This document shows, piece after piece, positions 2,687-64,000 of a stretch of DNA of 64,000 nt. The stretch lies in NCBI GenBank assembly GCA_000004985.1, contig GG738928.1; one strand, given 5' to 3'. The position numbers were made by a program, and so were the translations under genes. Positions within the stretch are counted from its first letter, which is position 1, and each line of letters starts with the position of its first letter. The DNA comes from Naegleria gruberi (taxonomy: Eukaryota). Under the pieces are notes generated by a model that saw only the letters and a list, made by a program, of their open reading frames with translations, was not told where the DNA came from and searched no databases.

Positions 2687-3646
2687 TTACAGAATTAAAC
2701 AACAAGAGCTTTCTTTTTTCTGTTCCTGTTTCACTGCAGATTGTTCTTTAGCATTCGTAGTATTAGTTGAGCTCTTCTCTTGGACTGGCGCTTGCTTACT
2801 TGGTTCCACTGTAGTTGTTGCTGCAGTACTTGTGCTAACTACTGTATTATTAGTACTATTTGATGTTGGCTTTGCAATTGGTTGTTCACTTGTTGTTGAC
2901 AAGACAACTTGTTCAGATTTTGTTTCCATTTTCAATGGGCTGTATTCCACTATTTTCTTGGCAATCGATGTCACGTGTTTACCATGAGCTTTGGCAATCT
3001 CTTTCTCTGCAGCAGATAACATTCTTTCACCTGCTCCACCAGCAATAGTTCCACTTCCGTAACAAGATCCACCTTCAATTTGGTCAATTGTCATGAGCTC
3101 AGGAATAAATGGAACACCTGCATAGATCATACCATGATGGAGAAGTGGAATCATGGAATTTAATGCAGTAACCTCTTGCCCACCATGTTGTGTTGCAGAG
3201 GATGTAAAGAAAGATCCAACCTTTCCAATTAATTCTCCATTCGTCCAAATCTGACCTGTGGCATCGAGGAAGGTTTTCATTTGAGAAGCCATTGTTCCAA
3301 AACGAGTAGGTGTTCCAAAGATAATGGCATCATATTGAGGTAATTCATCATAACTTGCCTATAGAAATAATTATTTTGAATTTAACACAATTATAATTTT
3401 CAATATTTTCATTTTGTTTTAAAAATCAAAATTAAATATATAACAACTTACAATTGGAATGTGTTCCATTGCTTTTTGAGCATCTAATGCACCCATCTTT
3501 TCCAAAACTTCCTTCGGAAGAGTTTCTGGCACTCTCTTGAGTGTCACTTGAGCATTTTCCACCATGGAAACTCCTTCAGCAATGGCCTCAGCCAATTTAA
3601 AGATGTGAGTATATGTAGAGTAGAAGAGAATTAAAACCTTGACCAT
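2687..3646 (-). CDS. WrbA-type NAD(P)H:quinone oxidoreductase (flavodoxin-like); 2 exons, join(3646..3451, 3357..2687), 93-nt intron
   Basis: Exon 1 is MVKVLILFYSTYTHIFKLAEAIAEGVSMVENAQVTLKRVPETLPKEVLEKMGALDAQKAMEHIPI, with donor GTAAGT at 3450. Exon 2 follows the AG at 3358 and begins ASYDELPQYDAIIFGTPTRFGTMASQMKTFLDATGQIW...GGQEVTALNSMIPLLHHGMIYAGVP...GGSCYGSGTIAGGAGERMLSAAEKEIA. It can be aligned along its length with E. coli WrbA as I recall it. Confidence 0.8.
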
Positions 3647-4052: not shown

Positions 4053-4631
4053 TTATTCTTCATCTGAATCTTCTTCTTCTTCTTCAGAATCATCTTCACT
4101 TTCTGTCTTTCCTACTAAATCTTCAAATACTTCCTTTGCATGTGTTTCTGGTTTGACACTTCCATAAACCTTGACAATTTTCATGTCCTTTCCAATAACA
4201 TAGGTTATTCTACGTGCTGATTTACTTCCAGCTCTCTTAGATTGAGCATTATACTTTTCCAAAATGTCTCTATCGGCATCAGAAATTAGGGTATGTTTCA
4301 AAGCTGCCTTTTCACAGAAACTCTTGTGACTCTTGACAGAATCTGTAGAAACACCCAATAATTTGATATCATTCTTTTCAAACTTGTCAGAATACTTGCT
4401 GAATGCAATATTTTCCTTCTTGCAACCTGGTGTATTATCCTTAGGATAGAAGAATAGGACCACTGTCTTTTTAATCTCTGAGAGTTTAACAGTTTCTCCA
4501 TCTTGATCCTTTACTTCAAAATCTGGAGCAATAGAATCAACTTCCAACAAGTCAGAATCTGATGTTGTCTTTTTCTTCTTACTCTTGGTTGATGATGTTT
4601 CCGAGTCGGCTTTCTTTCTCTTTCCTGCCAT
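4053..4631 (-). CDS. Bcp/PrxQ-family peroxiredoxin (thiol peroxidase) with basic N-terminal and acidic C-terminal extensions (Dot5-like nuclear peroxiredoxin)
   Basis: The FFYPKDNTPGC active-site motif matches the Bcp consensus FYPKDFTPGCT. The core thioredoxin fold is flanked by a KRKK-rich N-terminus and an EDDSEEEEEDSDEE tail. Confidence 0.75.
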   Translation of the reverse strand: MAGKRKKADSETSSTKSKKKKTTSDSDLLEVDSIAPDFEVKDQDGETVKLSEIKKTVVLFFYPKDNTPGCKKENIAFSKYSDKFEKNDIKLLGVSTDSVKSHKSFCEKAALKHTLISDADRDILEKYNAQSKRAGSKSARRITYVIGKDMKIVKVYGSVKPETHAKEVFEDLVGKTESEDDSEEEEEDSDEE

Positions 4632-5174
4632 CTTTGAATTACTTCTCTGTGAATGATGTTATTGTGAATTTTTTTGTTATTTGATGAAGAATTTATAATT
4701 GAATTAATTTTGGCTCCTTGATGATGATGAAATTATATTAGATAGATTGTTATTACTTGAAGGAATGTAATAGTAATATTGCTATCATCAATTCCATTAT
4801 TATAATAAAAATTAAAACAAAATCTTCCTCTCCATATCATCCACTAATGCCATCAAAATTCCTTCCTCCCACCACACATGTATCTTTCTCCAATGAATCC
4901 AGCAACAAACAAGAAAACTAGCTTGGCAAGCAAATGCCTTCCAAAAAACACCTTCTTTTGTACCTAGTCGCATTTCGGGATTTTTCTTCTTCAATGTCCT
5001 TCATTGTCCTGCAAGCTCCTCCTCCACAACAAAAAAATATTTCGCTTTGTTGTCTCTTGTACAGTACTCACACACACTTGTTTTTAGCCTTTCTCATCAT
5101 CAACTCATTGGCTTGTATCGAGAACAATTTTAGGCTTTTTCATTGAATAATAATAGTAATAATAATATTGGAAA

Positions 5175-8100
5175 ATGAGAACAACACTGAATAAGAATGC
5201 TATCAAACACTCTTCGGCAACACTTGGTGTCTTGATGAAGAAATCATCATCATCTTGTGGAGTGTTTGTAAAGAAGAATGATTTGAATTTTGGAAATAAT
5301 AATTTAATTGATAGTAATATATCAAGAGGGTTAAATAGTAATGTTGCTAGTTTGTACAATGCACAGACAAAGAGAAGAAACATTTCGGAAGAATTGCAAA
5401 AACCTAACACTGTAAATTTGGAACAAGTTCATGATGTCATCAAGAGAAATTTGAATACCAATGAATTGGATTGTATTTTTAAGCCAAAGAGCATTTGTGT
5501 TATTGATGATTTCAATCCTGATGTTCATGCTAGTCCAGTTCCTGTACCTAACGATAGTATTAGTAGTACTTTGGCTAGAAATGTTCTCTGGAATTTAATG
5601 TCTGTGTCACAAGTCAAGGTTTATGCAGTTTCTAAACATGTGGAAAGAGTTGGCAATGAACCAAAAACAAAGAGAAGACCACATTTATTGGGTGTACCAA
5701 TGTATCCATCTCTGAGTGAATTGTCAGCATCTAAATCTACAGAACAAAAGAAATTAGAAATTGATTTGGCTGTCATTTGTTGCCATCAAGTCGAAACCAT
5801 GTTCTATGCTTTGGAGGAGTGTATCAAGAATGGTGTTAAAGGATGTGTCATTATTGGAAGTGTTTACAGCAAATTTTATGAAAAATTCAGTGAAAATGAA
5901 ACAAAGAATATTGAAAAATTCAAGGAAATTGTCAAGGGATCTGACATTAGAGTTATTGGTCCTGGTATGGGTCTTATAACACCTCTTGTAACTCAATCAG
6001 GTCAATATCACGTTGGTGAAATTTACAATAACTTTTTGAATATTACTCCAACAAATAGAAGTTCTGAACTGACTCGTGGTAAAATTGGTGTTGTTTCACA
6101 ATCTGGTGCTTTGGCAACAACCATTCTCGATTGGAGTTTGAAGCAAGGAGTAGGATTGAGTGGTTTTGCCTGTGTTGGTGCTAATCAAACTGATGTTAAC
6201 TTTGCAGATATGGTTGAACATTTTGGTAATGATCCAAATACTCATGCCATCTTGTTGTACATTGAAGATTTGGGAAATAATGAACATATTAAGAGATTTG
6301 CCAGTGCTGCCAGAAGTGTAGCTTTAAAGAAGCCAATTATTGCCATGAAGATGAACACTAACAATAGAGACGAAGACAATTACCTTAATGCCCTCTTTGA
6401 AAGAGTTGGTATTTTAAGAGTTAATTCTATTGAAGAAATGTTTTACATGTCACAGCTTATTGGAAAACAAGCCATTACAAAGGGAAACACCATTACTGTT
6501 ATTTCTAACTCTGGTGGTGCTGCAACACTTGCTGTTGACGCCATCTACCAATCTAACATTACCGAATTGGGAGCTATTTCTAACAAGAGTGCAAAACTTT
6601 TGCAAGAGAGTGGAATTGATGTAGAAGAGGCTTTACTTTCTGGAAAGAAGGCTATTCCTGTAAATATCAGAAACACAGCCACTCCTGAACAATATGTTGC
6701 TGCTTTGGATATTGTATATAACGATCCAAAGACTGACAGCGTTCTTGTCATGTTAACTCCTCAAACAAGAACAGAACCAACAAGAACTGCTCAATTCTTA
6801 CAAAGATATATTGTTGAAAAGACAAAGGAAGGAAAATTATCCAAGCCAATTATGTGCTGTTTTATGGGTGGTAGAGATGTTGAAGCAGGTAGAAGTATCT
6901 TGTTGAGTGCTAACATTCCAGCTTTTGCCTTCCCAGAAATTGCTACCAAAGTATTCCAATACAATTACAGATACTCTAAGAATTTGGAAAATTTATATGA
7001 AGATCCAAGTCTTCTCGACAATGATGATGCCAGCCAAAATGAATCATCAAAACAAAAGGCTAGAGAATACATCAAGTCCTTACTTGAAAAGAATCCAAAC
7101 AAGGAAGCTCTCAATGAATATGAGAGTCAACATCTTCTTTCACTCTATGGTATTGGCGTTCCTCAGACAAGAATTGCTAACTCTGCTGAAGAAGCTGTGG
7201 AAGCTGCCAAACATATTGGATATCCAGTTGTGCTCAAATTGCACAATAGTGATACCACCATTTCCAAGTTAGATTTGGGTGGTGTTCTTTTGAATTTGAT
7301 GGATGAAAAGCAAGTTAAACAAGGTTTCAATTCTATCAAGCAATCAGTTGAAAAGAGTAATGTCAAATTTACTGGAGTTACTGTTCAATCAGATTGTAAG
7401 AAGATTGCTACTGGTAAGAGAGATTCCATTTCATTCGAATTGTATCTAGGATCTGAAGTTGATGAAAAGTTTGGACCAGTTATTTCATTTGGTACAGGTG
7501 GCTCTTTGCATCAAATTTACAAGGATAAGAGTTATGGCATTCCTCCACTTACTGCTCCTTTGGCCTATCAACTTTTGAGAAAGACAAAGATTTCTGATGC
7601 CCTCGTTGAAAGATTCAGAAATAAGCCAGCCATTGATATTGAAGGTTTAAAGTCTTTGCTCGTTCGTTTCAGCAGAATGGTTCTTGATAATAGCGATTTG
7701 ATTAAGGAATTTGAAATTAATCCTCTTCAAGCTCTTGCTACTGACAATGAAAAGTCCTTCACTGCTCTCGACTGCAGACTCACTCTCCACAAACCAAAGG
7801 CCAAGAAGGCTCAAAATGTCATTCGTTCCTACGAAAGAAAGTATGTCACCAACGTTAGTGATGATATCCTTGTTAGACCATCCAAGTTTTCTGATTTTAG
7901 AAAGCTTCTCTCATTCTTTACCAATCTCTCACCAAAGACTTTGGAATCTAGTATTAGAGAGTCAGCTCTTCGTTCACAATGCTCCATTGCTTTCCTCAGT
8001 TTGAAGAATCAATACAATAAGGCCAAGAATCAAGATGCTCCACAACCATTGGATCCATATGCATTGAGTCTTAACACAGATGGAGACTCTAAGGAGATTT

Positions 8101-8477
8101 ACCAAGAATTGGTTCAGTACGTTTCCAGTGACTTTGACAGAGAAGTTGTATTGTTCGCTATCGATAAGAAGAGCAAGTCCATTATCGGCATGGGTGTCTA
8201 CACAATTATGCAACAATCCATTGTTAGTTCAAAGAAGAGAAAGGCCGAACTCCAACTCCTTGTTGGTGAACAAGCTCAAGGAAAGGGTATTGGTAAATAC
8301 CTCTTGGAACAATTAATTCACATTGCCAAACAAGAAGGAAACATTTCACAACTCATTGCCTACACTCACCACTCCAACATTGGTGTTCAAAAGTTGTGTA
8401 CTCGCGCTGGATTTGTTGAGCAAGACAATTCAGAACTTTTTGAACAAGGTGTTCTAGTTTCAACCTTGGATTTGTAA
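5175..8477 (+). CDS. Pat/PatZ-like protein: ADP-forming acyl-CoA synthetase (CoA-binding, CoA-ligase and ATP-grasp subdomains) fused to a C-terminal GNAT acetyltransferase; about 160-aa N-terminal extension that may be a mitochondrial presequence
   Basis: Single 1100-aa ORF. CoA-binding region: ...KSICVIDDF...VYAVS...IDLAVICCHQVETMFYALEECIKNGVKGCVIIGS. Succinyl-CoA-synthetase-like region: GKIGVVSQSGALATTILDWSLKQGVGLSGFACVGANQTDV...ITVISNSGGAATLAVD. ATP-grasp: ESQHLLSLYGIGVPQTRIANSAEEAVEAAKHIGYPVVLKLHN...LGGVLLNL. C-terminal GNAT: ...QLLVGEQAQGKGIGKYLLEQLIHIAKQEG. This domain order is that of bacterial protein-lysine acetyltransferase Pat (NDP-forming acyl-CoA synthetase plus GNAT). Confidence 0.75.
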   Translation: MRTTLNKNAIKHSSATLGVLMKKSSSSCGVFVKKNDLNFGNNNLIDSNISRGLNSNVASLYNAQTKRRNISEELQKPNTVNLEQVHDVIKRNLNTNELDCIFKPKSICVIDDFNPDVHASPVPVPNDSISSTLARNVLWNLMSVSQVKVYAVSKHVERVGNEPKTKRRPHLLGVPMYPSLSELSASKSTEQKKLEIDLAVICCHQVETMFYALEECIKNGVKGCVIIGSVYSKFYEKFSENETKNIEKFKEIVKGSDIRVIGPGMGLITPLVTQSGQYHVGEIYNNFLNITPTNRSSELTRGKIGVVSQSGALATTILDWSLKQGVGLSGFACVGANQTDVNFADMVEHFGNDPNTHAILLYIEDLGNNEHIKRFASAARSVALKKPIIAMKMNTNNRDEDNYLNALFERVGILRVNSIEEMFYMSQLIGKQAITKGNTITVISNSGGAATLAVDAIYQSNITELGAISNKSAKLLQESGIDVEEALLSGKKAIPVNIRNTATPEQYVAALDIVYNDPKTDSVLVMLTPQTRTEPTRTAQFLQRYIVEKTKEGKLSKPIMCCFMGGRDVEAGRSILLSANIPAFAFPEIATKVFQYNYRYSKNLENLYEDPSLLDNDDASQNESSKQKAREYIKSLLEKNPNKEALNEYESQHLLSLYGIGVPQTRIANSAEEAVEAAKHIGYPVVLKLHNSDTTISKLDLGGVLLNLMDEKQVKQGFNSIKQSVEKSNVKFTGVTVQSDCKKIATGKRDSISFELYLGSEVDEKFGPVISFGTGGSLHQIYKDKSYGIPPLTAPLAYQLLRKTKISDALVERFRNKPAIDIEGLKSLLVRFSRMVLDNSDLIKEFEINPLQALATDNEKSFTALDCRLTLHKPKAKKAQNVIRSYERKYVTNVSDDILVRPSKFSDFRKLLSFFTNLSPKTLESSIRESALRSQCSIAFLSLKNQYNKAKNQDAPQPLDPYALSLNTDGDSKEIYQELVQYVSSDFDREVVLFAIDKKSKSIIGMGVYTIMQQSIVSSKKRKAELQLLVGEQAQGKGIGKYLLEQLIHIAKQEGNISQLIAYTHHSNIGVQKLCTRAGFVEQDNSELFEQGVLVSTLDL

Positions 8478-12276: not shown

Positions 12277-14373
12277 ATGCAACAACTCGATGATATCGAA
12301 CCTGGTCCTGTCCACAACGTGTCCGACTTGATCCAATTCATCTCCAACTGTGATCAAATCATTCACCACCACCCGAAGCCACTTTATCACTCCTACCAAC
12401 ATTTCGATGGTGATGATGAAGAATTTAGGTGTGATTTTTTATTGATTGGTTCCCGTGCATTGAATGATCATTGGAAAAAGGCAAATAATTTATCATCATC
12501 ATCGGAAGAAGAAGAACCATCAAGATGGTCATGGACACAGAAGGTTATGAAGAAATGGTCCGATGAGAGATTTAATAGAAAATCCGCCGATTGGGATTTA
12601 ATTTGTCTGAACAGGGATGCACTTGTGAATTTGTTAAAATCGAAGGAATTTAAAGAAATTTCTCTAAATTATGCCCATCATGTCCATTTGAAAAAGAAGA
12701 ATATTTCAAATAGATATGAAAGCTCTGATTTTTATGATTGGGTTCTTGGTGGTGGACAGGCAAGGAGATGGATTGAATTTTCTATTCGATTGGAACAATT
12801 TGATGGTGAAATTATTGAAATTGAGTATTGTACAGATAGATATCACTTGTTGAAATATTTGGAAATGAGGGAAGTGTCTCGATTGGATATTCTTCCTTCA
12901 TCACTGATTGACTCTTTTTCATGTGAAATAGCTCCATTACAATTATTGGAAATTATCAAGAAATCACATTTACAATTCAATATTGATGACGATAATTGGA
13001 CGAAACACATTCTCGATATAGAGTTAATTCATCTCATTCTACCAACATCAGAGCAATATCATGAAAAATCACTTCGCAATTCAATTTATGATTTGGCAGG
13101 GCTGGTGCATTATGATCGTCTCACGAAACGAATTGTGAAATATTTGCACGATGAGGGAGATTCTGATTTTGCTTCCAATTTCAATATGTTCATGTTTTCC
13201 AGTACTAAGGATGATATCTATGATGTGGTTAGTCCACTCAATGAGGAAATGTTGTATAGTGCATTTGGAGTTTCGTCCATCTCAATGAAACCCTATCATA
13301 TACAGAATAATTTGAACTCTTTAAGGTTTATTTCACAACAAGTTGCGGCCAATTTACTTTCATCAGTTGTGCATGCAATAGATTCGAATGAATTGGAGAA
13401 ATTAGTTTTCAAATCAATGAAGAATGCTATAGAACAAAATATTGATACTTTTCTGTTTGGGATCATGAGGGATAATTTTATGAAATTGTCTGAAATGGTT
13501 TTTGACATGCTGAATCAACCACTAATTTTCAAGAAATTATTCGAAACAAAAGCTGAAATGAACCAATTCAGATTTAAGAATGCTCCAATTGACTTTGAAA
13601 ATGTGAAGGAAATTTCAAATAAGGAAGGTGCCACTCTCTCACATCATTATCTTCCAATTGAAATTGTCATGACAATTGCATCATATATACCAAAGGCAAT
13701 TGATTTAACAAATTTAATGAGATTAGACAAGAGTTGGAATAATGTATTTGAATCTAATGACGTTTGGAAGTATCTTTGCTATTGTAGATATCCAAAACCA
13801 GCTCACTACTCTCTAGAAAATGATTCTTTCCAAGTAGATGATTGGAAATATTATGTTCTTTCCAGATCCATGTTTGAAAGAGTTCAGTTTCCAACTATTA
13901 AGGGATTGGACTGTCTTTTGAATGCTTTCAGAGTAAAGTTTATTGACAAATCAACAATATTCAAGCAATTTGTCAATGATTTCTTTACTAACACTTACAT
14001 AGCCACCAAGACATTGAATGATGACAAGATGAATGAATATAACACCATGAAGGCCACCTTAATAACATACTGGCCTTGTCAGTCTCCTCTCAAATATGAT
14101 ATAGAAATAGTTTTGGATTTAGCTGAATACAGAAGTGGGGATAGTAAAGGTGGAAGTAGAAGTACAGTGAGTGGAAAGTTGCACAACTCTGAACACTTTT
14201 CAAATCCTTTAAGACTTGTCAAATTCAATAAGGCACAAAATTTCATTGGAAAGTACTATCTCCAAAACATGAACCCCGATCAATATGCATCTCTTTTTAC
14301 TACCTTATTGGTTCTTGGATTGGGAGATAATGAATTCATTAGAACAGTGTTCGGCTATGGGTGGTCCAAATAA
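12277..14373 (+). CDS. Hypothetical 698-aa protein with an internal F-box-like motif
   Basis: LPIEIVMTIASYIPKAIDLTNLMRLDKSWNNVFESNDVWKYLCY resembles an F-box. The rest is unassigned. Confidence 0.45.
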   Translation: MQQLDDIEPGPVHNVSDLIQFISNCDQIIHHHPKPLYHSYQHFDGDDEEFRCDFLLIGSRALNDHWKKANNLSSSSEEEEPSRWSWTQKVMKKWSDERFNRKSADWDLICLNRDALVNLLKSKEFKEISLNYAHHVHLKKKNISNRYESSDFYDWVLGGGQARRWIEFSIRLEQFDGEIIEIEYCTDRYHLLKYLEMREVSRLDILPSSLIDSFSCEIAPLQLLEIIKKSHLQFNIDDDNWTKHILDIELIHLILPTSEQYHEKSLRNSIYDLAGLVHYDRLTKRIVKYLHDEGDSDFASNFNMFMFSSTKDDIYDVVSPLNEEMLYSAFGVSSISMKPYHIQNNLNSLRFISQQVAANLLSSVVHAIDSNELEKLVFKSMKNAIEQNIDTFLFGIMRDNFMKLSEMVFDMLNQPLIFKKLFETKAEMNQFRFKNAPIDFENVKEISNKEGATLSHHYLPIEIVMTIASYIPKAIDLTNLMRLDKSWNNVFESNDVWKYLCYCRYPKPAHYSLENDSFQVDDWKYYVLSRSMFERVQFPTIKGLDCLLNAFRVKFIDKSTIFKQFVNDFFTNTYIATKTLNDDKMNEYNTMKATLITYWPCQSPLKYDIEIVLDLAEYRSGDSKGGSRSTVSGKLHNSEHFSNPLRLVKFNKAQNFIGKYYLQNMNPDQYASLFTTLLVLGLGDNEFIRTVFGYGWSK

Positions 14374-41349: not shown

Positions 41350-44300
41350 TTAAATCAATTTCGAATCATTCAACAAATTTTCTCTGGTTTTACCAGAATT
41401 TTCATAAAAAACAAACTCATCTGTTGTAGTAAATCTGGAAAAGGTATCATTCAAGTTGATAATAATCTGATCTTGTAGTGAGCTGATTGATTGTTGCAAT
41501 TTTTCATGGAATGCTTCTGGTATTTCCTTTTCATTCTTTGATTTCATTTCTTGATTGTTCTTGGCAGAGTTGACCAATTCACTAAGTGATTTTCTCATTT
41601 GTTTGAATTCGTTTCTAGTTTCGGATGGAATGTTAACTTCCTTAATGGAGCCACTTTCAATATAATTGGTAAATAATTCTTCAATCAATGAATTCACAGA
41701 GTCAATTCTGTCATTTGCTTTGATTAACTCTTGGAGTTGTTTCAGTTCCAAATATAAATGCAAGTTTTCTAATGAATATTCCTTTTTACAGAATGATTCG
41801 AATAGTTTCAGACCTTCTCTATTCGATAGTAATTGTTCCAATTCATCCTTTTCTTCATTACTCGATTGGTTTCTAAAATTCTTTTGTTTGATGAAATGAA
41901 CTAATCTCACAATAAGTGCAAATCCTCCAAATACCAACAAGTAACTAAACAAGTACAATATTTCAAATAGCAATGAAATTGAATCGTTCACTCTTGAATT
42001 TACATCACCTCTCTTGTAACTCAAACCTGACAATCCAATAATTTGTGAAATTACCAAAAATGTAAAGCAAACAATAAATAAAATCATTTCCACTCTAAAG
42101 TATAATGGAGTATCGAGTTGAATGAACCAATCATAAGCTCTCTTGATTGGAACTTTTGCCATTTTCTTGGCAGTTTCCTTATCAAACTTTTGTAAAGCTT
42201 CCTTGTTAAACGAAAGTGAACTATTTGATAAATTACTTGTTGATTTTTCATTACTATCCACAAGCATTTCAGATTCATTTCTAGAATTCAAAAGTGACAT
42301 GATCACATCTAACAAAATCAATGCACATATAAGAAATCCCAATGATAAAATCATAATTGTAAACGAAATTGAAACAATGTAAGAATATTCGATTCCTGTA
42401 ATGACACTCGTTCTCACAAGAATTACCCACAACGTCCAATACATTAGGTTCACGGTCATAAAGATTCCCATGATGGAAATCATTGCTCTTGTGGAGAGGA
42501 AAATTCTAATCACTCTCAAAATTTTGTCTCCCTTTTGGTACAATTGACTAGTTCTATCATTTTGGTTCAATGAGAATTTAATGGATAATCTATGATAGAA
42601 ATATTTGAGAATGTGAAATCTTGATGTCTGATACAAGTATGAAAACATTGCTGTCAAAGTCAAAGTGTTTACAATAATTGTAATAACATTCGAAACAATA
42701 TTCGATGCCAAATTACCATTTTCCAATTGAATCACCGTCGACTCTGTCAATCCCTCACTCTTCAATGATAATATCAACCCATTTCTAGTAGTATCCAACA
42801 AAATACTCCTCTGAACTATCAGAAATAGTCCACTTTCCACCACCAATGCAAACATTCCAATAAACGGAGTTACAAATCGACTCGCCAATGGTTGAGATTT
42901 TCGCATCACAATCAAGGCAACGAGAATTGAACTCGACAAGATGAAAAATAAAACACCAAATGAAATTTGTGCAATGTACAATTCGGATAATTGTTCGGCA
43001 GCCCTTAATGAATCAGTTGCGGTGTTATTAAGGGAGTTTTCGATAAAGGCAGCGAAGAGTGTGGTGTGCGTACATTTACAAATTAAATCTCCGTTTGATT
43101 GTAAAGTGGAAAGCGAGCAGCCGCTGGAATCCCATTGTAAAGTTGTTTCATTCCAGAATTTACAAGTGATTTGAGATGAATTGAGAGAATTGATTGTTTG
43201 ATTCAATATTGTAAAGTTAATTGAAATTGGTTGAGTCAATTCTGAAAGTGGTAATGTTTTACCTCCTAAATAAAGAGTGAAATCTTTAGAGTTGGTCAAT
43301 TGAGTTTGATTTGAAGTAAATAGAGGATTAGTATAGGTTATGAGTGATAATCCAACTTCCTTATTGTAGCCATCGTATTTTGTTAGAATGTAATCCGAAT
43401 CTAAACTAATGTCGGAGAATTTTTCTAATTTAGTGCTGTTAGAATTCTTAATAAATGTTGAAACTGTTACATTAATCAAATCTGATGAATAAACTGTGGA
43501 AATAATAGATTCGGATAATAATTTGACCGATTGCTGCAATAATAGAACAGATGTCAATTGAGTACAAGTATTCGAAACATTTGAGAAACCAAAAGAAAGT
43601 AAATTACTTGCACTTGTCAAGGTTGTTTGTAAATCAGAATCTGAAATTCTTTGCTTTGTAACGTAGCCAAGAGTTTCCTTTTCTTTTTTGTAAATTTCAT
43701 TAACTTGATTCAAATAATTTCCTAATTTGTCATTAATTGCTGTAGCAACCTCATTGGAAGAAGCTGATAAAGTAATTTGTTTCAGATTTTCCAAAGCAGT
43801 GGACGGATTGGAAATGTCAATTGTCATCTTATTGACAGACTCTACAAGTACTGAACTAGTTACTTCCTTTCTCAATTTTAAACTTGTATCATATGGAAAT
43901 ACAGTTGCAATACTACCCATTCTTGCTTTCAAAACTTCTGAAGAATCGTCCAAATTTGCACTAATCGAAACTGAACTAATCGATTGAGAATATTCAGTCC
44001 CCAACGCATCCAAACAAATTACAAACAATTCCAAACTTTGACTTGTAGCCAAACTTGTTTCATTCAAATAGGGAAGATACACAGAATCTCTTCCACTTGT
44101 CAAAAATTCTGAAATTCTAATCATTGAATTCTTAAATTTAAATCCAAAAGCAAATTTGAGAGGAGAAAGAAACAATCGACTCGCATTCGAATCTGTAAAA
44201 TTCCAAGCACCTACAACTTCCTCAATAATAAAACTTGTTTTCAGTGCAACACCTGACAATGGTTGAATATTAACAATTGCCATTGGATTTCGAATTGGTG

Positions 44301-46187
44301 GTGCGACGAGAATTACTTGTTGTGAAATGGCGATGATTTGATCCTTAATTGGCTTAATAAGGAGTGTGAAGGTGAGATTTCCAGAGGATTGGATGGTTGG
44401 TTGGATTTTGATGGAAATGATGGGATTGAAGGTCAATGTGAATAAGTTGGCGTTGTTTTTTGGTTTCGTCAAGATTCCAATAACATTTTCATCTGCTGAA
44501 ATAACTTCAGAACCAAACATGAATGAATATTTCAATGAAATGGTACAATTTGCAGTAGCACACTCATCCCTTGTTAATTTCAAATCTGAACTAGTTCTCA
44601 ATTCAACGCTCACAATATTGAAATCAACATTGTTTTTCACACCATTCACAAGTACTTGTGGAATTCCAATAGCATTCAGTGATCTTTCCACTAAAAGTGA
44701 ACAATCTATACCTAAATATCCTCCAGTACAAGTACAAAAGTCAGGTTGTAGACAATTGCCATTTCCAGAACAAACATTCGGTGAATTAGCCGAAACTCCA
44801 AAACAAATTGGAATGAAACAATTAGGTCCAGTATATCCAGGTGAACAAGTACAATTATTTGAAGAAGCACAAATACCATTTCCTGAACAAACTCTATTAT
44901 CATTTGCAGCAATTCCAAAACAACCAATCGAGCCACAATTATTTCCATAAAAACCTGGTTGACATTGACACTTGTTCATTTCAATGCATTCACCCCTTCC
45001 TGAGCAAACACTGCTACTGTTAGTACTCTCAATTCCAAAACACCAATTTGTAACACACATTGTTTTGAACTCATTCAAATAATAACCACTTTCACATGAT
45101 GGAGTTAGTGATCTAATTCTCTTTTTCAAAAATTCTGAAATATAAATTACACCACTTGTCTCATTAAATACTAAACCTCTTGCATCACTCACTGAACTAT
45201 CCAGAGCATCAGTGTTTTCATATGAAGTTGTGCTATTTCCAGCAATCATTGTAAGAGTTCCATTCTTGTCAATTCTGAAAATTCTTCCCTTATATGTTTC
45301 TGTTACAAAGACAGTTTCGTCCTTGGTAACGAATAAAGCACCACCTCCAATTGGGGAACCAGTGAATGCTAGTGTTGAAATATATCCAGTTTCGTTTATC
45401 ACTCTAACACCTTTCGTATCTGATAGGAAAATCTTTCCATTCCTAACAAAAATATCAAAAGGAGACTGAAGAATAGCACTAGTAGCTAGAACACCCTCTC
45501 CAGAATACGAAGAATCCAAATCACTTCCTGCTATTAATGAAATTATTCCATTCTTGACTAATCTAACTCTCGACTTGTCTATCAGGTAAAATTCATTCTC
45601 TGAAATTGCAAAGATTGAATTTGGACCTTTCAGAGCACTAAAAGCAGATCCATTTTCAGTGAAGGAAGACAAGGAGAAATCAGAATAGTTTCCAGCAACT
45701 GTGGAGACGAAACTATTCGGCCAATCACGAAGAGAAAGTTTTCTGACAATTCTATGTATTCTAATGATTAAAGATAATGATGAAATTGTTATATTGTGAT
45801 ATTGTGTGAAAATGTCATGTTATTAGCTTACCTGTCAACGTAAAAGAGGGTGTCATTGAAAATACTCGAGTCAGCCACAGTTGACATACAAATAGTGTTC
45901 TGATTACCATCAGGAGTGTATATTGAAGTGTTGTTTCCAATCTTGTTAGGAGAAAAACTTTCACTTTCCAATGAAAAGATTCGAATAGTACGGTTTAAAC
46001 CATCAGAAACGATTAGTTCGTTGTTGTATAAGGAAATTCCATACATTCCAATATCTGGTGTAGAAATTGGACCAATAGTCTTGATAATGTATTTAACACT
46101 AGCTTGTTTTTGTTCTTGTCCATCAACAGCCACAAACAGTAACAACACAATTGACAACAACAACCATGTATGACAGTTGACTTTCAT
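41350..46187 (-). CDS. Adhesion-GPCR-like receptor: signal peptide, NHL repeats, 3 tenascin-type EGF modules, large ectodomain, GPS motif, 7TM, C-terminal RGS domain; 2 exons, join(46187..45832, 45760..41350), about 1590 aa
   Basis: Exon 1: MKVNCHTWLLLSIVLLLFVAVDG (signal peptide) plus NHL-like repeats. Donor GTAAGC at 45831, acceptor TAG at 45761, phase 2. Exon 2: NHL repeats (GSPIGGGALFVTKDETVFVTETYKGRIFRI), EGF modules (CSGRGECIEMNKCQCQPGFYGNNC; CSGNGICASSNNCTCSPGYTGPNC; CSGNGNCLQPDFCTCTGGYLGIDC), GPS motif (CKFWNETTLQWDSSGCSLSTLQSNGDLICKCTHTTLFAAF), seven hydrophobic helices, then the RGS domain (LKLFESFCKKEYSLENLHLYLELKQL...FTNYIESGSIKEVNIP...). Confidence 0.75.
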
Positions 46188-61732: not shown

Positions 61733-64000
61733 ATGCCTTTAAATGCATCGAATGTATCCAACAGAAGTAAGGATGATGTGATCATCGAGGATGGGTATAC
61801 AGCATCTTCATCGTTATCGTCATCCTCATTATCGTTATTAAGGGCAGGTGATAGTAAAAGCTGCAGTAGCTGTTCAATAGAAGCAGCAACTCCATGGAAA
61901 CAAGATACATCCTCATCATCAACATCAGATGACTTCATAATTCCTATTCGGAATGGTAGGAGCAACTCTCGCCAATTCATAAAAACACCATCCTTTTCAT
62001 CCCTTTCAACAATAATAGATTCTTCACTTCCATCAACGCCTAAATCATTGCCTTCATCACCATCATCATTACAAAATCATCAAGAAGGAACAGAACCACC
62101 TCTTACTGATACTCTCCTAGTTAAATCGATGAGCGAATGTAAGAATGACATGGAGAGGGGCATGTTGAACATGTTGGCTGATAAGAAGAATCTTCAGAGA
62201 TTGGTCGGAATTCTCTTCATCTTTGCCACTCTACAAAGTGTTCAACAAATGACACTCTATGAAAATTTATTGAATATTGCCTTTTTCCTTGTTCAGTGCC
62301 TTAATAATTATTTAAGACAAACTAATAATGATACAGCTCTCACCTATGAGGAATCATTCAAACATTTGGATAAAAGAGAAATTATAAGAACTGTTTTTTC
62401 AATGGTCATGTACACTTTGAGAATGATGTATCTTCCCAAACACAAGATGATTTTCCTTCCAGTGCTTTTTATTTGGTTTGCAGGAGCTAACAAACTATAT
62501 ATCTACTCTACATTTTGGGGATTACTACCCACTTACTATGCTTCAGTGATGTATATATCGTTGGCTTGCTATTTTGGATTTTATGAATTGTTAGAGAATG
62601 GGTACACTGAGACATTTCTAAATTTAATGATGGATTACTTTATTTTGGTGGCTGTGGTGTGGATGTGGACATATTATCTGGTTAATGTAACTGGATTCTT
62701 GAAACACAAAGTGGACAAACTGAAGGAAACAAGGAAACGTTTGGAAAGTGCTTTGGAAGCACGAAGTAGATTCATTGCACATGTGAGTCATGAATTCCGT
62801 TGTCCAATCATGTCCAGCATTGGGTGTTTAGAATTGTTGAAAGAAACTCCTCTGAATGAGAAACAAAATGATCTCGTAGATACAATAGTTTCATCGAATA
62901 GTGTCATTCTTCTATTGATTGAAGACATTTTACAAATTGTTAAAATTGAACATGAAAGTAAGGGTGCAAAGAAGGAAGATACAAATATTCAACCTTTCAA
63001 TATTTTCGAATCATTGAAATCGCTGAAAGGAATAATTTCTGGTTATGCTTCGAATTTTAAGGTTAAGCTTAATTTGGAAATTGATGAAGGAATTAAGAAC
63101 TTGACAGTTTTATCAAATCCTTCAAAGATCCATCAAATACTTTCTAATTTGCTGACGAATGCAGTGAAAGCATCAAAGAAAGATGATGATGTTTGGCTTA
63201 AATGCAATATTTTGGAAAAGAAAGATGATGAAACTGTAAAGATTAGATTTACTTGTCAAGATTTTGGATGTGGAATTCCTCCTAATTTGTTGGAATCTAT
63301 ATTTGAACCCTTTGTACAATTGCAAAATAATTCACAATCAAAAGTACCTAGCTCTGGGCTAGGATTGACTACAGTATCTCATTTAATCAAGACATTGAAT
63401 GGAACTATTAACGTTGAATCACAGGTTGGAATAGGAAGCTCATTTACAGTTGACTTGGCTTTTAAAATTGTTCCAAACGAGGTAAAATATAAAGTTCAAG
63501 AAAATGTTGTTGTAGAAGAAAAGAGATCGAAACTACACTTGAACGTTCACAAGAATTACTTGAACCTGATGTCACATTTAGAAGAAGGTGAAAAGGAAAT
63601 GGAAGAAACTCCAAAATTCAATTCCAATGTTTTGATAGCTGAAGATAATCCAATCAATAGAAAAGTTATTGTAAAGATGATTAATAGTATGGGAAGTGAA
63701 ACTGATTTTGTTTGTGATGGAAAGGAATTGGTTGAAAAGTTTAATCCAAGCACTCACAAAGTTGTATTTACTGATATGGTAGGTAGCTCAAATTTCGTTT
63801 TTTAAGGTCTAATAACAATAATAGAATATGCCAAATATGAACGGATTAGAAGCAGCCAAGAAATTAAGAGAAAAATTTGGAAATACTTTCAGGATTTATC
63901 TCTTGACAGGAAATGTCACAATTTCATTATCTGATGAAATTGGTGTGTTTGATGGAGTGTTAACTAAACCTTGTTCTAAACAGGATTTGAAAAAATGTTT
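61733..64000 (+). CDS. Hybrid sensor histidine kinase (multi-TM sensor, HisKA, HATPase_c, receiver); join(61733..63778, 63825..>64000), 3' end beyond the window
   Basis: S-rich N-terminus and about 6 TM helices. H-box RSRFIAHVSHEFRCPIMS; N/G boxes LLTNAVKAS...DFGCGIP...GLGLTTV. Receiver domain VLIAEDNPINRKVIVKMI...VVFTDM|NMPNMNGLEAAKKLRE split by a 46-nt intron (donor GTAGGT at 63779, acceptor TAG at 63824). Confidence 0.75.

What the first reader, a model, noticed from the sequence alone, without database searches (positions are those of the whole stretch)
5175..8477. A bacterial Pat/PatZ-type fusion of an ADP-forming acyl-CoA synthetase and a GNAT acetyltransferase in a eukaryotic genome
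The domain order CoA-binding, succinyl-CoA-synthetase-like, ATP-grasp, then C-terminal GNAT (QGKGIGKYLLEQLIH...) is the hallmark of bacterial protein-lysine acetyltransferases (Pat/PatZ/Pka), which regulate AMP-forming acetyl-CoA synthetase by acetylation.

Here it sits as an intronless 1100-codon ORF with a roughly 160-aa N-terminal extension of organellar-presequence flavour. Its flanks are clearly eukaryotic: intron-containing neighbours and a divergent promoter shared with a Dot5-like peroxiredoxin. This suggests horizontal acquisition and domestication of a prokaryotic protein-acetylation regulator.
Basis: partly seen in the sequence, partly recalled or inferred. Interest (0 to 1): 0.68.

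Follow-up and report, generated by a model that had tools for sequence, protein, structure and literature searches.

The report
Bacterial-type Pat acetyltransferase in Naegleria mitochondria
The amoeba Naegleria gruberi carries a real, expressed nuclear gene for a bacterial Pat/PatZ-style acetyltransferase: the acyl-CoA-synthetase half has lost its catalytic histidine loop, the GNAT acetyltransferase half is intact, and a published proteome places the protein with mitochondria, making it a candidate dedicated mitochondrial protein acetylase.

Summary
Window 5175-8477 (+) is an intronless 1100-codon gene of Naegleria gruberi (XP_002669321.1). It encodes an ACD-like module (CoA-binding-like, ligase-CoA, ATP-grasp) followed by a C-terminal GNAT. 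The best sequence and fold match is full-length E. coli PatZ.

It is not contamination. Orthologues sit in N. fowleri and N. lovaniensis, in N. fowleri beside the same peroxiredoxin. dN/dS is 0.05. A published N. gruberi proteome lists it among mitochondrial proteins (38 peptides).

  - The N-terminal extension is about 76-99 aa, not 160.
  - The CoA-binding loop is degenerate (VIDDF plus 14 aa).
  - The phosphohistidine loop is deleted, so it cannot be an ADP-forming synthetase.
  - The GNAT Glu (E1025) and motif A (QGKGIG) are intact.
- **Origin:**
  - The closest bacterial relatives (31-35% identity, many phyla) keep the histidine.
  - An uncultured heterolobosean homologue (42%) is an intermediate state, so the PatZ-like "dead synthetase, live GNAT" state arose inside the eukaryotic lineage.
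  - The fusion also occurs in Cyanidiales red algae, Cyanophora and gastric Cryptosporidium; these do not group with Naegleria.
  - Bacterial origin is likely, but donor and number of transfers are unresolved.
- **Function:** protein-lysine acetylation is inferred, not shown.

The parts
5175..8477 (+). Complete intronless CDS (1100 codons plus TAA) of the N. gruberi Pat-like protein XP_002669321.1 / D2W2U9
   Evidence: ORF list. [quoted passage not shown] Coordinates re-translated.
5175..5402 (+). N-terminal extension (residues 1-76) absent from bacterial homologues; probable mitochondrial presequence
   Evidence: - No acidic residue in the first 35 aa; 7 K/R; net charge +8.
- Only 30-44% identical among Naegleria species, and dN/dS 0.23 against 0.05 overall.
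- pLDDT below 50.
- Published TargetP mitochondrial score 58 and MultiLoc 55, plus co-fractionation with mitochondria (PMC8134430).
5403..6065 (+). Diverged CoA-binding-like subdomain (residues 77-297)
   Evidence: No Pfam CoA_binding hit, but it aligns with bacterial CBDs and is folded in the model. It is 76-82% identical among Naegleria species, with dN/dS 0.085.
5499..5564 (+). Degenerate Gly-rich CoA loop: 'VIDDF' plus a 14-aa insert (residues 109-130) in place of 'V[IV]GA[ST]ExxGSVG'
   Evidence: Motif alignment. The canonical loop is kept in all bacterial relatives, the uncultured heterolobosean P0146, Cyanidiococcus, Cyanophora and Cryptosporidium. The insert has pLDDT below 50.
6066..7034 (+). 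Ligase-CoA (succinyl-CoA-synthetase-like) subdomains (residues 298-620)
   Evidence: Pfam Succ_CoA_lig and Ligase_CoA_2. Most conserved part among Naegleria species (89-93% identity; dN/dS 0.009).
6348..6383 (+). Site of the deleted phosphohistidine loop ('KMNTNNRDEDNY', residues 392-403): no catalytic His
   Evidence: A 13-15-column gap lies exactly where relatives have 'AAKAAASHTGxLTG'. That His is essential in ACD and is absent in Pat/PatZ (PMC12184503, PMC3195501).
7092..7790 (+). ATP-grasp subdomain (residues 640-872)
   Evidence: Pfam ATP-grasp_5, E 7e-57. Invariant K688, E755, G773-G776 and P850. Matches the PatZ AGD structure 9isb.
7950..8087 (+). Heterolobosean-specific insert of about 46 aa (residues 926-971) at the position of the PatZ substrate-gating motif
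   Evidence: - Present only in Naegleria, P0146 and P0202.
- pLDDT below 50.
- Query residue 976 aligns with PatZ H764, and the PatZ gating motif is V746-T763.
8100..8474 (+). GNAT catalytic core (residues 976-1100)
   Evidence: Pfam Acetyltransf_1 and _3. Matches the PatZ GNAT domain and the S. lividans PatA GNAT 4u5y. dN/dS 0.006.
8247..8249 (+). Codon for Glu1025, aligned with the catalytic Glu809 of E. coli PatZ
   Evidence: phmmer alignment 'rkAElq' against 'idAEFa'; motif table; role of E809 (PMC12184503).
8277..8294 (+). GNAT motif A, Q1035-G-K-G-I-G1040 (acetyl-CoA pyrophosphate-binding loop)
   Evidence: G1040 is invariant in alignment A1.
4632..5174 (.). 543-bp divergent intergenic region shared with the peroxiredoxin gene
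   Evidence: The same head-to-head pairing occurs in N. fowleri.
4053..4631 (-). Neighbouring AhpC/TSA (BCP/Dot5-like) peroxiredoxin gene; a syntenic marker, not part of the enzyme
   Evidence: Pfam AhpC-TSA, E 3e-35. tblastn hit next to the N. fowleri orthologue.

Best explanation
The gene encodes a nuclear-encoded, mitochondrion-targeted member of the Type I GNAT (Pat/PatZ-like) family.

**Origin.** A single-chain fusion of an NDP-forming acyl-CoA-synthetase-like module and a GNAT domain, of bacterial type, entered an ancestor of Naegleria and at least one other heterolobosean.

**Changes inside that lineage.**
- It gained a basic N-terminal presequence and an insert at the substrate gate.
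- It lost the SHTG phosphohistidine motif.
- In Naegleria it then lost the whole swinging loop and the Gly-rich CoA loop of the first subdomain.

**Resulting mechanism.**
- The synthetase-like 80% of the protein can no longer make or split acyl-CoA.
- That part most likely serves as the scaffold or regulatory body, as in PatZ, where it builds the tetramer and part of the substrate pocket.
- The intact GNAT domain (Glu1025, motif A QGKGIG) transfers an acetyl or other short acyl group from acyl-CoA to lysines of mitochondrial proteins.
- By analogy, the likeliest targets are AMP-forming acyl-CoA synthetases. This would tie enzyme activity to the acetyl-CoA pool of an amoeba that lives on fatty acids and acetate.

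**Shown:** gene structure, architecture, fold, motif states, conservation, expression, co-fractionation with mitochondria.

**Inferred:** acyl-transfer activity, protein-lysine substrates, regulatory role of the dead module, direction and number of transfers.
For: **Architecture and fold**
- Pfam domains.
- PatZ is the top hit by sequence and by structure over about 1030 aligned columns.

**Dead synthetase**
- The phosphohistidine loop is deleted.
- NCBIfam ACD models score far below their cut-offs (255 against 1300; 234 against 567).
- The CoA loop is replaced.
- The literature states that this His is essential for ACD and missing in Pat/PatZ.

**Live GNAT**
- E1025 aligns with PatZ E809, and motif A is present.
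- GNAT dN/dS is 0.006.

**The dead module is still needed**
- The LCD is 89-93% identical among species, with dN/dS 0.009.
- In SePat and PatZ the N-terminal module is required for activity.

**Real host gene**
- Orthologues exist in three Naegleria genomes, with a conserved peroxiredoxin neighbour in N. fowleri.
- Its GC and GC3 match the host's.

**Expression and location**
- 38 unique peptides and 49% coverage.
- Log2 LFQ of 23.6, 27.2 and 29.6, rising towards the mitochondria-richest fraction.
- Listed on the mitochondrial sheet of PMC8134430.
- Presequence-like N-termini occur in all four Naegleria sequences and in P0146.

**Stepwise evolution**
- P0146 is 42% identical and lies on eukaryotic contigs beside an RPS23 closest to Willaertia and Naegleria.
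- It shares the extension and gate insert, but keeps the CBD loop and the full-length (though SHTG-less) loop.
- The Naegleria + P0146 + P0150 + P0202 clade has 58/60 bootstrap support.

**Physiology**
- N. gruberi oxidises fatty acids and acetate (PMC6205838).
- AMP-forming synthetases occur in the same mitochondrial proteome.
Against: - There is no enzymology for this or any closely related protein.
- GNATs also acylate small molecules and N-termini.
- The allosteric acetyl-CoA site that defines PatZ regulation (K23, R26, R81 in the CBD loop region) has no recognisable counterpart here, so 'acetyl-CoA sensing' may not apply.
- The gate insert suggests a different substrate range.
- Gradient co-fractionation is not proof of matrix location, and PSORT II preferred the nucleus.
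- No sirtuin or acetyl-CoA synthetase was found by name in the stored part of the proteome table, which is truncated.
- Phylogeny was limited to neighbour-joining with simple distances. The Naegleria branch is long, and its position at the base of the bacterial clade could be a long-branch artefact.
Confidence: 0.6

Rival explanations
1. It is a working ADP-forming acetyl-CoA synthetase (an ATP-yielding acetate former of facultative anaerobic metabolism) that merely carries an extra GNAT tail. This is what relatives' database names suggest, and what the BLAST label used in the proteome table suggests.
For: - Homology of residues 170-870 to ACD-family enzymes.
- The Galdieria and Cryptosporidium homologues are named 'acetyl-CoA synthetase (ADP-forming)'.
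- The proteome table gives 'acetyl CoA synthetase subunit alpha' as the BLAST homologue.
- The closest bacteria keep SHTG.
Against: - The phosphohistidine loop is physically deleted in all four Naegleria sequences, and the Gly-rich CoA loop is replaced.
- NCBIfam ACD equivalog scores are 4-5 times below their cut-offs.
- N. gruberi produced no detectable acetate (PMC6205838).
Confidence: 0.03
2. The GNAT domain is active, but it does not act on protein lysines as in Pat/PatZ. It acylates a small molecule (amine, antibiotic, amino acid) or protein N-termini, or it mainly uses another acyl-CoA such as propionyl-, succinyl- or a fatty-acyl-CoA.
For: - The GNAT superfamily is functionally broad. 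Weak NCBIfam hits go to ArsN1 and RimI.
- A 46-aa insert sits at the substrate-gating position.
- The closest metagenomic bacterial homologue lies in an acetoacetate/thiolase gene cluster.
- The organism's mitochondria handle many acyl-CoAs.
Against: - The best structural matches of the GNAT part are protein acetyltransferases: PatZ, and S. lividans PatA in complex with Acs.
- The whole-protein architecture is known only for protein lysine acetyltransferases.
Confidence: 0.2
3. The gene was not acquired by a Naegleria-lineage-specific transfer. It is an old eukaryotic gene (from the mitochondrial or plastid endosymbiont, or a very early transfer), retained patchily in Heterolobosea, Cyanidiales, glaucophytes and gastric Cryptosporidium and lost elsewhere.
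For: - Six eukaryotic representatives rank among the best 32 of 17,178 hits.
- Several (Cyanidiococcus, Cyanophora A, Galdieria) also have 66-108-aa N-terminal extensions.
- In the reference NJ tree the red-algal pair lies close to the heterolobosean clade.
Against: - Eukaryote monophyly got 0/60 bootstraps, and heterolobosean + red algae only 15/60.
- With P0146 as the sole heterolobosean representative, the sister group changes from replicate to replicate.
- No alphaproteobacterial affinity was seen.
- Distribution in eukaryotes is extremely sparse.
Confidence: 0.2
4. The ORF is bacterial contamination or a chimeric assembly.
For: Strong similarity to bacterial proteins and lack of introns.
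Against: - Orthologues of 77-81% identity lie on 487-kb and 628-kb contigs of two other Naegleria species, in N. fowleri with the same peroxiredoxin neighbour.
- Host GC and GC3.
- A eukaryote-type N-terminal extension.
- Peptides detected in N. gruberi organelle fractions.
- The best bacterial identity is only about 35%.
Confidence: 0.01
5. It is a catalytically inert scaffold (pseudoenzyme) whose GNAT domain only binds acyl-CoA.
For: - Two of its ancestral active sites are demonstrably degenerate.
- Related eukaryotic fusions (Galdieria, Cyanophora A and C) have degenerate GNAT motifs.
Against: - The catalytic Glu and motif A are conserved across Naegleria and P0146, and GNAT dN/dS is 0.006.
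- P0202 sheds the CBD and much of the ATP-grasp domain but keeps the GNAT. This points to the GNAT as the selected activity.
Confidence: 0.05

Closest known systems
E. coli PatZ (YfiQ/Pka) and Salmonella enterica Pat: Type I GNAT protein lysine acetyltransferases (PDB 9it0, 9isq)
   Same: - Single chain with CoA-binding-like, ligase-CoA and ATP-grasp subdomains followed by a C-terminal GNAT.
- Top hit by sequence and by fold.
- Catalytic His of the synthetase module absent.
- GNAT Glu (E809 / E1025) and motif A present.
   Different: - Only 24-25% identity.
- The His is removed by a loop deletion rather than the H-to-L substitution of PatZ.
- The CBD loop that binds the allosteric acetyl-CoA in PatZ (K23, R26, R81) is replaced by VIDDF plus 14 aa.
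- A 46-aa insert sits at the gating motif.
- It carries a 76-aa presequence-like extension and is eukaryotic and nuclear-encoded.
- It does not branch with the gamma/beta-proteobacterial Pat clade.
Uncharacterised bacterial proteins that NCBI names 'bifunctional acetate-CoA ligase family protein / GNAT family N-acetyltransferase' (Chloroflexota, Acidobacteriota, Verrucomicrobiota, Cyanobacteria, Planctomycetota, Myxococcota, Parachlamydiaceae and others)
   Same: - Closest non-eukaryotic relatives (31-35% identity overall; up to 44-48% in the LCD and AGD).
- Colinear over 90% of the length, GNAT included.
   Different: - They keep SHTG and the Gly-rich CoA loop.
- They have no N-terminal extension and no gate insert.
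- They are about 915 aa long.
NDP-forming acetyl-CoA synthetase, ACD (Ca. Korarchaeum ACD1, 4xyl; Giardia/Entamoeba ACS-ADP)
   Same: Fold and order of subdomains 1-5.
   Different: - ACDs have no GNAT.
- ACD needs the phosphohistidine and CoA sites that are missing here.
- That the ACDs of anaerobic protists are about 700 aa and cytosolic rests on my own knowledge of those enzymes. Transfers of such ACS-ADP genes into eukaryotes are already reported.
Eukaryotic ACD-GNAT fusions: Cyanidiococcus yangmingshanensis KAK4531373, Galdieria sulphuraria XP_005704786, Cyanophora paradoxa (3 paralogues), Cryptosporidium muris XP_002140975
   Same: Same domain order. 34-36% identity to the Naegleria protein. 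Some have long N-terminal extensions.
   Different: - Most keep SHTG, so they are probably active synthetases, while their GNAT motifs are often degenerate. This is the opposite pattern of decay.
- They do not form a supported clade with Naegleria.
Streptomyces lividans PatA (Type II GNAT; GNAT domain in complex with Acs, PDB 4u5y)
   Same: The GNAT core superposes (target TM 0.86).
   Different: That the domain order is reversed in Type II rests on my own knowledge; the held paper says only that the types differ in domain arrangement and that Types I and II both carry an ACD-like regulatory domain.

Membership tests
Type I GNAT (Pat/PatZ/YfiQ) | One polypeptide: an N-terminal module homologous to NDP-forming acyl-CoA synthetase (CBD, LCD, AGD), then a C-terminal GNAT domain | tested here: met
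   Pfam; phmmer against PDB; colinear alignment; full-length Foldseek match to PatZ.
Type I GNAT (Pat/PatZ/YfiQ) | Catalytic histidine of the synthetase module not conserved (H254 of ACD1 is L245 in PatZ) | tested here: met
   The loop carrying SHTG is deleted in all Naegleria sequences. The criterion comes from PMC12184503 and PMC3195501. Many bacterial proteins with this architecture do keep the His.
Type I GNAT (Pat/PatZ/YfiQ) | GNAT catalytic glutamate (PatZ E809) and acetyl-CoA motif A (Q/R-x-x-G-x-G/A) | tested here: met
   E1025 aligns with E809. QGKGIG occupies 1035-1040.
Type I GNAT (Pat/PatZ/YfiQ) | Second, allosteric acetyl-CoA site in the CBD (PatZ K23, R26, R81) giving positive cooperativity | tested here: inconclusive
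   The Gly-rich loop region is replaced by VIDDF plus a 14-aa low-confidence insert, which argues against a canonical site. PatZ's CBD did not align by sequence, so a residue-by-residue test was not possible.
Type I GNAT (Pat/PatZ/YfiQ) | Homotetramer, or acetyl-CoA-induced oligomerisation | not testable with these tools
   Only a monomer model was made. High LCD conservation is compatible with such interfaces but is not a test.
Type I GNAT (Pat/PatZ/YfiQ) | Acetylates the active-site lysine of AMP-forming acetyl-CoA synthetase (Acs K609) | not testable with these tools
   AMP-forming synthetases are in the same mitochondrial proteome, but no substrate data exist.
Type I GNAT (Pat/PatZ/YfiQ) | Phylogenetic placement inside the characterised proteobacterial Pat/PatZ clade | tested here: not met
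   NJ trees place Naegleria with, or at the base of, the multi-phylum His-containing clade. The gamma/beta-proteobacterial clade is the next group out.
NDP-forming acetyl-CoA synthetase (ACD, EC 6.2.1.13) | Phosphohistidine on the swinging loop (SHTG) | tested here: not met
   Deleted.
NDP-forming acetyl-CoA synthetase (ACD, EC 6.2.1.13) | Rossmann Gly-rich CoA-binding loop in subdomain 1; Pfam CoA_binding or CoA_binding_2 | tested here: not met
   No Pfam hit; loop replaced.
NDP-forming acetyl-CoA synthetase (ACD, EC 6.2.1.13) | Curated NCBIfam equivalog score | tested here: not met
   TIGR02717 scored 234 against a cut-off of 567. NF045494 scored 198 against 1200. NF045493 scored 255 against 1300.
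Nuclear-encoded mitochondrial protein with a cleavable presequence | Basic N-terminal extension poor in acidic residues, absent from prokaryotic homologues | tested here: met
   Conserved in character, not in sequence, across Naegleria and P0146.
Nuclear-encoded mitochondrial protein with a cleavable presequence | Experimental association with mitochondria | not testable with these tools
   [quoted passage not shown] The cleavage site and sub-organellar location are unknown.

The most novel reading that the evidence does not exclude
Naegleria, and at least one other heterolobosean, run a dedicated enzyme-catalysed protein acylation system inside mitochondria. It is built from a bacterial ACD-GNAT fusion that converged, independently of enterobacterial PatZ, on the 'dead synthetase, live acetyltransferase' design. 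It has a re-modelled substrate gate and has lost the canonical allosteric CoA site. If true, this is a natural case in which mitochondrial lysine acetylation is set by a bona fide acetyltransferase rather than by acetyl-CoA chemistry. It would control acyl-CoA synthetases or beta-oxidation enzymes in a lipid- and acetate-burning amoeba whose relative N. fowleri is a brain pathogen.
Probability: 0.4. Interest if true: 0.65.

Novelty: new variant of a known kind. Interest (0 to 1): 0.5.

Why it matters
**Mitochondrial acetylation.** That no generally accepted dedicated mitochondrial lysine acetyltransferase exists in animals or yeast, and that much mitochondrial acetylation is thought to be non-enzymatic, rests on my own knowledge of that field; I did not check it here. 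An expressed Pat-type enzyme that co-fractionates with mitochondria offers a tractable natural counter-example. It also offers a way to ask what enzymatic control of mitochondrial acetylation buys a cell.

**Evolution.** The series runs from bacteria (His kept), to the uncultured heterolobosean (SHTG lost, loop kept), to Naegleria (loop deleted, CoA loop destroyed), to P0202 (CBD and much of the ATP-grasp gone). It documents step by step how a catalytic module turns into a regulatory or scaffold module, in parallel with what happened in proteobacterial PatZ.

**Annotation.** Relatives are labelled 'acetyl-CoA synthetase (ADP-forming)'. For Naegleria that label would wrongly add an ATP-yielding acetate branch to metabolic maps.

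**Limits.** Gene transfer into Naegleria is common. Similar fusions exist in a few other eukaryotes. The function is still untested.

Tried and rejected
- **GNAT half alone.** The two halves were instead compared on local alignments.
- **AFDB fold search.** Foldseek against AFDB50, intended to list eukaryotic UniProt entries with the same fold, was not available.
- **Parachlamydiaceae donor (amoeba symbionts).**
  - The MAG protein P0008 is nearest in the GNAT core (37% identity; sister in 21/50 bootstraps).
  - The signal falls to 9/50 after Dayhoff-6 recoding and is absent in the synthetase-like 676 columns (43/50 sister to the whole clade).
  - I treat it as a probable AT-composition effect.
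- **Donor phylum in general.** Distances from the shorter-branched P0146 to Acidobacteriota, Abditibacteriota, Cyanobacteria, Verrucomicrobiota and Chloroflexota are all 0.84-0.89, so it is unresolved.
- **'Naegleria-only' distribution.**
  - This was suggested by the word-indexed search.
  - It was overturned by the exhaustive phmmer search.
  - The index had missed Cyanidiococcus, Galdieria, Cyanophora and Cryptosporidium, as well as the 42%-identical P0146.
- **Intron in the N. lovaniensis model.** Rejected. It masks a frameshift, because the downstream frame encodes the conserved GNAT with dN/dS 0.006.
- **Codon usage as a foreign signature.** GC and GC3 are ordinary. The RSCU correlation with neighbours is 0.90, slightly low for a gene of this length but inside the window's range of 0.71-0.97. 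It is not informative.
- **Literature.**
  - No paper in the library mentions the accession in its main text or describes a Pat-type enzyme in Naegleria or any eukaryote.
  - The 2010 genome paper is not held. I therefore could not check whether this gene was its predicted 'ACS (ADP-forming)'.

Full report
**1. The observation**

- Pfam finds Succ_CoA_lig (301-428), Ligase_CoA_2 (490-603), ATP-grasp_5 (642-871) and GNAT models (about 981-1080) in that order.
- The best matches among solved structures are the two E. coli PatZ entries, by sequence (E about 3e-65).
- An AlphaFold2 model (pLDDT 75.7, pTM 0.79) also matches PatZ best by fold. The alignment spans about 1030 columns, with TM 0.76-0.80 normalised to PatZ.
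- The GNAT part also superposes on the S. lividans PatA GNAT domain solved with its Acs substrate.

The described domain order is therefore real and far beyond chance. Two details need correcting.

- No CoA_binding model fires. The first subdomain is visible only through alignment and fold.
- The extension beyond bacterial homologues is about 76 residues before the conserved PNTVNLE block, or 99 before the FKPKS block where bacteria have 5-36. It is not about 160.

**2. Whose gene it is**

The window is unmistakably eukaryotic.
- It encodes a UBC-LRR protein, an EGF-GPS-RGS receptor-like protein, protein kinases, MutS, DnaJ and TyrRS.
- A WrbA-like gene just upstream is split by a short intron.
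- An AhpC/TSA peroxiredoxin is transcribed divergently, 543 bp from the start codon.

Orthologues exist in other Naegleria genomes.
- They are 81% and 77% identical and lie on 628-kb and 487-kb contigs of N. fowleri and N. lovaniensis.
- In N. fowleri the gene sits again head-to-head with the peroxiredoxin.

GC (0.366) and GC3 (0.302) are those of the neighbours. Contamination or chimerism is excluded.

Being intronless is not diagnostic. From my own knowledge, many Naegleria genes lack introns.

**3. Anatomy**

Alignment with 23 bacterial homologues, and a motif table that adds eukaryotic homologues, show four lineage-specific changes.

- **(a) Phosphohistidine loop.**
  - The loop 'AAKAAASHTGxLTG' is present in every close bacterial relative.
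  - It is cleanly deleted in Naegleria ('KMNTNNRD-EDNY', residues 392-403).
  - This histidine is the obligatory phosphoryl carrier of ACD enzymes, and its absence is what makes Pat/PatZ non-synthetases (PMC12184503, PMC3195501).
- **(b) CoA loop.** The Gly-rich loop 'V[IV]GA[ST]ExxGSVG' of subdomain 1 is replaced by 'VIDDF' plus a 14-residue insert.
- **(c) Gate insert.**
  - An insert of about 46 residues (926-971) lies immediately before the residue that aligns with PatZ H764.
  - That is the position of the PatZ substrate-gating motif, V746-T763.
- **(d) N-terminal extension.** A basic N-terminal extension poor in acidic residues has been added.

All four additions or replacements are the low-confidence segments of the model, while the cores are confident.

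By contrast, the GNAT catalytic Glu (E1025, aligned with PatZ E809) and motif A (Q1035-GKGI-G1040) are intact. NCBIfam ACD equivalogs score four to five times below their cut-offs.

**4. Constraint, expression, location**

Between N. fowleri and N. lovaniensis, dN/dS is as follows:

| Region | dN/dS |
|---|---|
| Overall | 0.054 |
| Ligase-CoA part | 0.009 |
| GNAT core | 0.006 |
| CBD-like part | 0.085 |
| ATP-grasp | 0.055 |
| N-terminal extension | 0.23 |

The catalytically dead module is thus at least as constrained as the live one.

The organelle proteomics of Horváthová et al. 2021 (PMC8134430) reports the following.
- XP_002669321.1 is on the sheet of 946 putative mitochondrial proteins.
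- It has 38 unique peptides and 49% coverage.
- Log2 LFQ values are 23.6, 27.2 and 29.6, rising towards the fraction richest in mitochondria.
- TargetP (58) and MultiLoc (55) predict a mitochondrial location. PSORT II preferred the nucleus.

The extensions of all four Naegleria sequences have 6-8 K/R and no acidic residue in the first 27-41 positions. This includes the N. fowleri N-terminus, which is 67 codons longer than annotated.

**5. Relatives and origin**

The word-indexed search found only Naegleria sequences above 77% identity and then bacterial or metagenomic proteins at or below 35%.

Bacterial homologues occur in species genomes from many phyla, all at 31-34% identity:
- Chloroflexota, Acidobacteriota and Verrucomicrobiota;
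- Cyanobacteria, Planctomycetota and Myxococcota;
- Actinomycetota and Armatimonadota;
- plus a Parachlamydiaceae MAG.

The closest metagenomic one lies on a bacterial contig next to CoA-transferase and thiolase genes.

The exhaustive phmmer search changed the picture.

- **Rank 2 is P0146** (1069 aa, 42% identity over residues 32-1084).
  - Its contigs carry MyTH4-RhoGAP, a split Methyltransf_16 gene and a cytosolic RPS23.
  - The best named RPS23 relatives are Willaertia magna (88%) and Naegleria (87%).
  - It therefore comes from an uncultured heterolobosean.
  - It shares the extension and the gate insert. It keeps the canonical CBD loop and a full-length, but SHTG-less, loop.
- **P0202 is a further relative.** It has lost the CBD and much of the ATP-grasp domain yet keeps the GNAT and the insert.
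- **Six other eukaryotic entries sit among the best 32 hits:** Cyanidiococcus, Galdieria, three Cyanophora paralogues and gastric Cryptosporidium species. Most retain SHTG, and several have degenerate GNAT motifs.

Neighbour-joining bootstraps gave these supports:

| Grouping | Support |
|---|---|
| Naegleria monophyly | 60/60 |
| Naegleria + P0146 + P0150 + P0202 | 58/60 |
| Monophyly of all eukaryotes | 0/60 |
| Heteroloboseans with red algae | 15/60 |
| Best sister of the heterolobosean clade, P0146 as sole representative | at most 6/60 |

The characterised proteobacterial Pat/PatZ-like clade lies outside the multi-phylum His-containing clade with which Naegleria groups.

My reading:
- The origin is bacterial, through an already fused gene of the His-containing type.
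- Acquisition predates the split of Naegleria from at least one other heterolobosean.
- The donor and the number of transfers into eukaryotes are undetermined.
- These trees use simple distances, and the Naegleria branch is long.

**6. How it most likely works**

*Shown.* It is a nuclear gene, expressed as protein, that co-fractionates with mitochondria. It has the PatZ fold, no phosphohistidine loop, no canonical CoA loop in subdomain 1, an intact GNAT active site, and very strong purifying selection on both halves.

*Inferred.*
- The presequence delivers the protein to mitochondria.
- The GNAT domain transfers acetyl or another short acyl group from acyl-CoA to protein lysines.
- The synthetase-derived body provides oligomerisation and part of the substrate pocket, as demonstrated for PatZ and SePat, where the isolated GNAT domain is inactive or impaired.
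- The likeliest substrates, by analogy only, are AMP-forming acyl-CoA synthetases. Two of these are in the same mitochondrial proteome.
- N. gruberi lives on fatty acids and readily oxidises acetate (PMC6205838).
- Whether acetyl-CoA still acts allosterically is doubtful, given the destroyed CBD loop.
- The gate insert suggests altered substrate selection.

**7. Comparison with what is known**

It works like, and by architecture, fold, missing His and intact GNAT belongs to, the Type I GNATs. It fails or leaves open three tests:
- placement in the characterised proteobacterial clade (not met);
- the allosteric CBD site (inconclusive, probably lost);
- tetramer formation and Acs acetylation (untestable here).

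It is not an ADP-forming acetyl-CoA synthetase, because three defining features were tested and not met.

Transfers of plain ADP-forming ACS genes into anaerobic protists are already described. No held paper that my searches returned describes a Pat-type fusion in Naegleria or any other eukaryote, or mentions this accession outside a supplementary table.

**8. Verdict**

The finding is real and the core of the interpretation survives, with these amendments:
- a shorter presequence;
- secondary, in-lineage loss of synthetase catalysis, convergent with PatZ;
- an unresolved donor;
- the fusion is not unique among eukaryotes.

Novelty: a new variant of a known kind. Interest is moderate (0.5). 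The mitochondrial location makes it a useful test case for enzymatic mitochondrial acetylation. However, gene transfer into Naegleria is common and the function is untested.

Noticed in passing
L002 10001-13353 (N. lovaniensis PYSW02000034.1), around 12754-12760: The orthologue is split by a frameshift (frame 0 for 944 aa, then frame 2 for 202 aa). The deposited model XP_044545477 hides it with a 140-nt 'intron' that removes conserved residues. The downstream GNAT has dN/dS 0.006, so an assembly indel is more likely than a pseudogene.
   Followed up: partly
L001 9800-10000 (N. fowleri VFQX01000051.1): The N. fowleri model XP_044559553 (1052 aa) starts 67 codons too late. An in-frame upstream 'MRRSLSSC...' N-terminus is conserved with N. 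lovaniensis, and a Logan-derived version is 1119 aa.
   Followed up: yes
window 2687-3560 (-): A WrbA/flavodoxin-like NAD(P)H:quinone oxidoreductase is split by one short intron. Exon 1 reads 'MVKVLILFYSTYTH...EHIPIV' and exon 2 reads '[21 protein letters not shown]...'.
   Followed up: partly
window 4053-4631 (-); L001 9160-9612 (-): An AhpC/TSA peroxiredoxin with a Lys-rich N-terminus and an acidic C-terminal tail is paired head-to-head with the Pat-like gene in both N. gruberi and N. fowleri. No homologue was detected at that position in N. lovaniensis.
   Followed up: partly
L087 6001-9210; L088 957-4166 (JGI metagenomes 3300057245-48, SRR29605877): An uncultured heterolobosean carries a 1069-aa intermediate form of the protein (P0146). 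Two contigs with the identical gene differ in their upstream neighbour (a 333-aa membrane protein against RPS23) and in GC (0.43 against 0.36), so one may be chimeric or strain-variant.
   Followed up: partly
P0202 (686 aa, metagenomic representative): A member of the heterolobosean clade lacks the CoA-binding subdomain and has a truncated ATP-grasp domain. It keeps the GNAT domain and the gate insert, which is a further step in the decay of the synthetase module.
   Followed up: partly
P0092, P0101 (gammaproteobacterial PatZ-like representatives): These bacterial proteins have their own deletion of about 12 residues in the phosphohistidine loop, parallel to the Naegleria deletion.
   Followed up: no
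P0149, P0152, P0153, P0158, P0177, P0155: ACD-GNAT fusions occur in Cyanidiococcus, Galdieria, Cyanophora (3 paralogues, one of 1216 aa) and Cryptosporidium muris/andersoni/serpentis. Most keep SHTG while the GNAT Glu or motif A is often degenerate. The Galdieria copy has lost both the His motif and motif A.
   Followed up: partly
L083 5265-10751 (JGI 3300022861): The closest metagenomic bacterial homologue (P0005) directly follows CoA-transferase A/B and thiolase genes. This hints at a role in acetoacetate or short-chain acyl-CoA metabolism for the uncharacterised His-containing bacterial clade.
   Followed up: no
window 61733-63805 (+); L001 3204-8303; L002 4369-8847: N. gruberi has a hybrid histidine kinase about 53 kb from the gene. 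N. fowleri and N. lovaniensis have two hybrid histidine kinases directly upstream of the locus. Local synteny is rearranged.
   Followed up: no
window 41350-45249 (-): A 1299-aa protein combines EGF repeats, a GPS motif and a C-terminal RGS domain, making it an adhesion-GPCR-like receptor with a built-in RGS.
   Followed up: no
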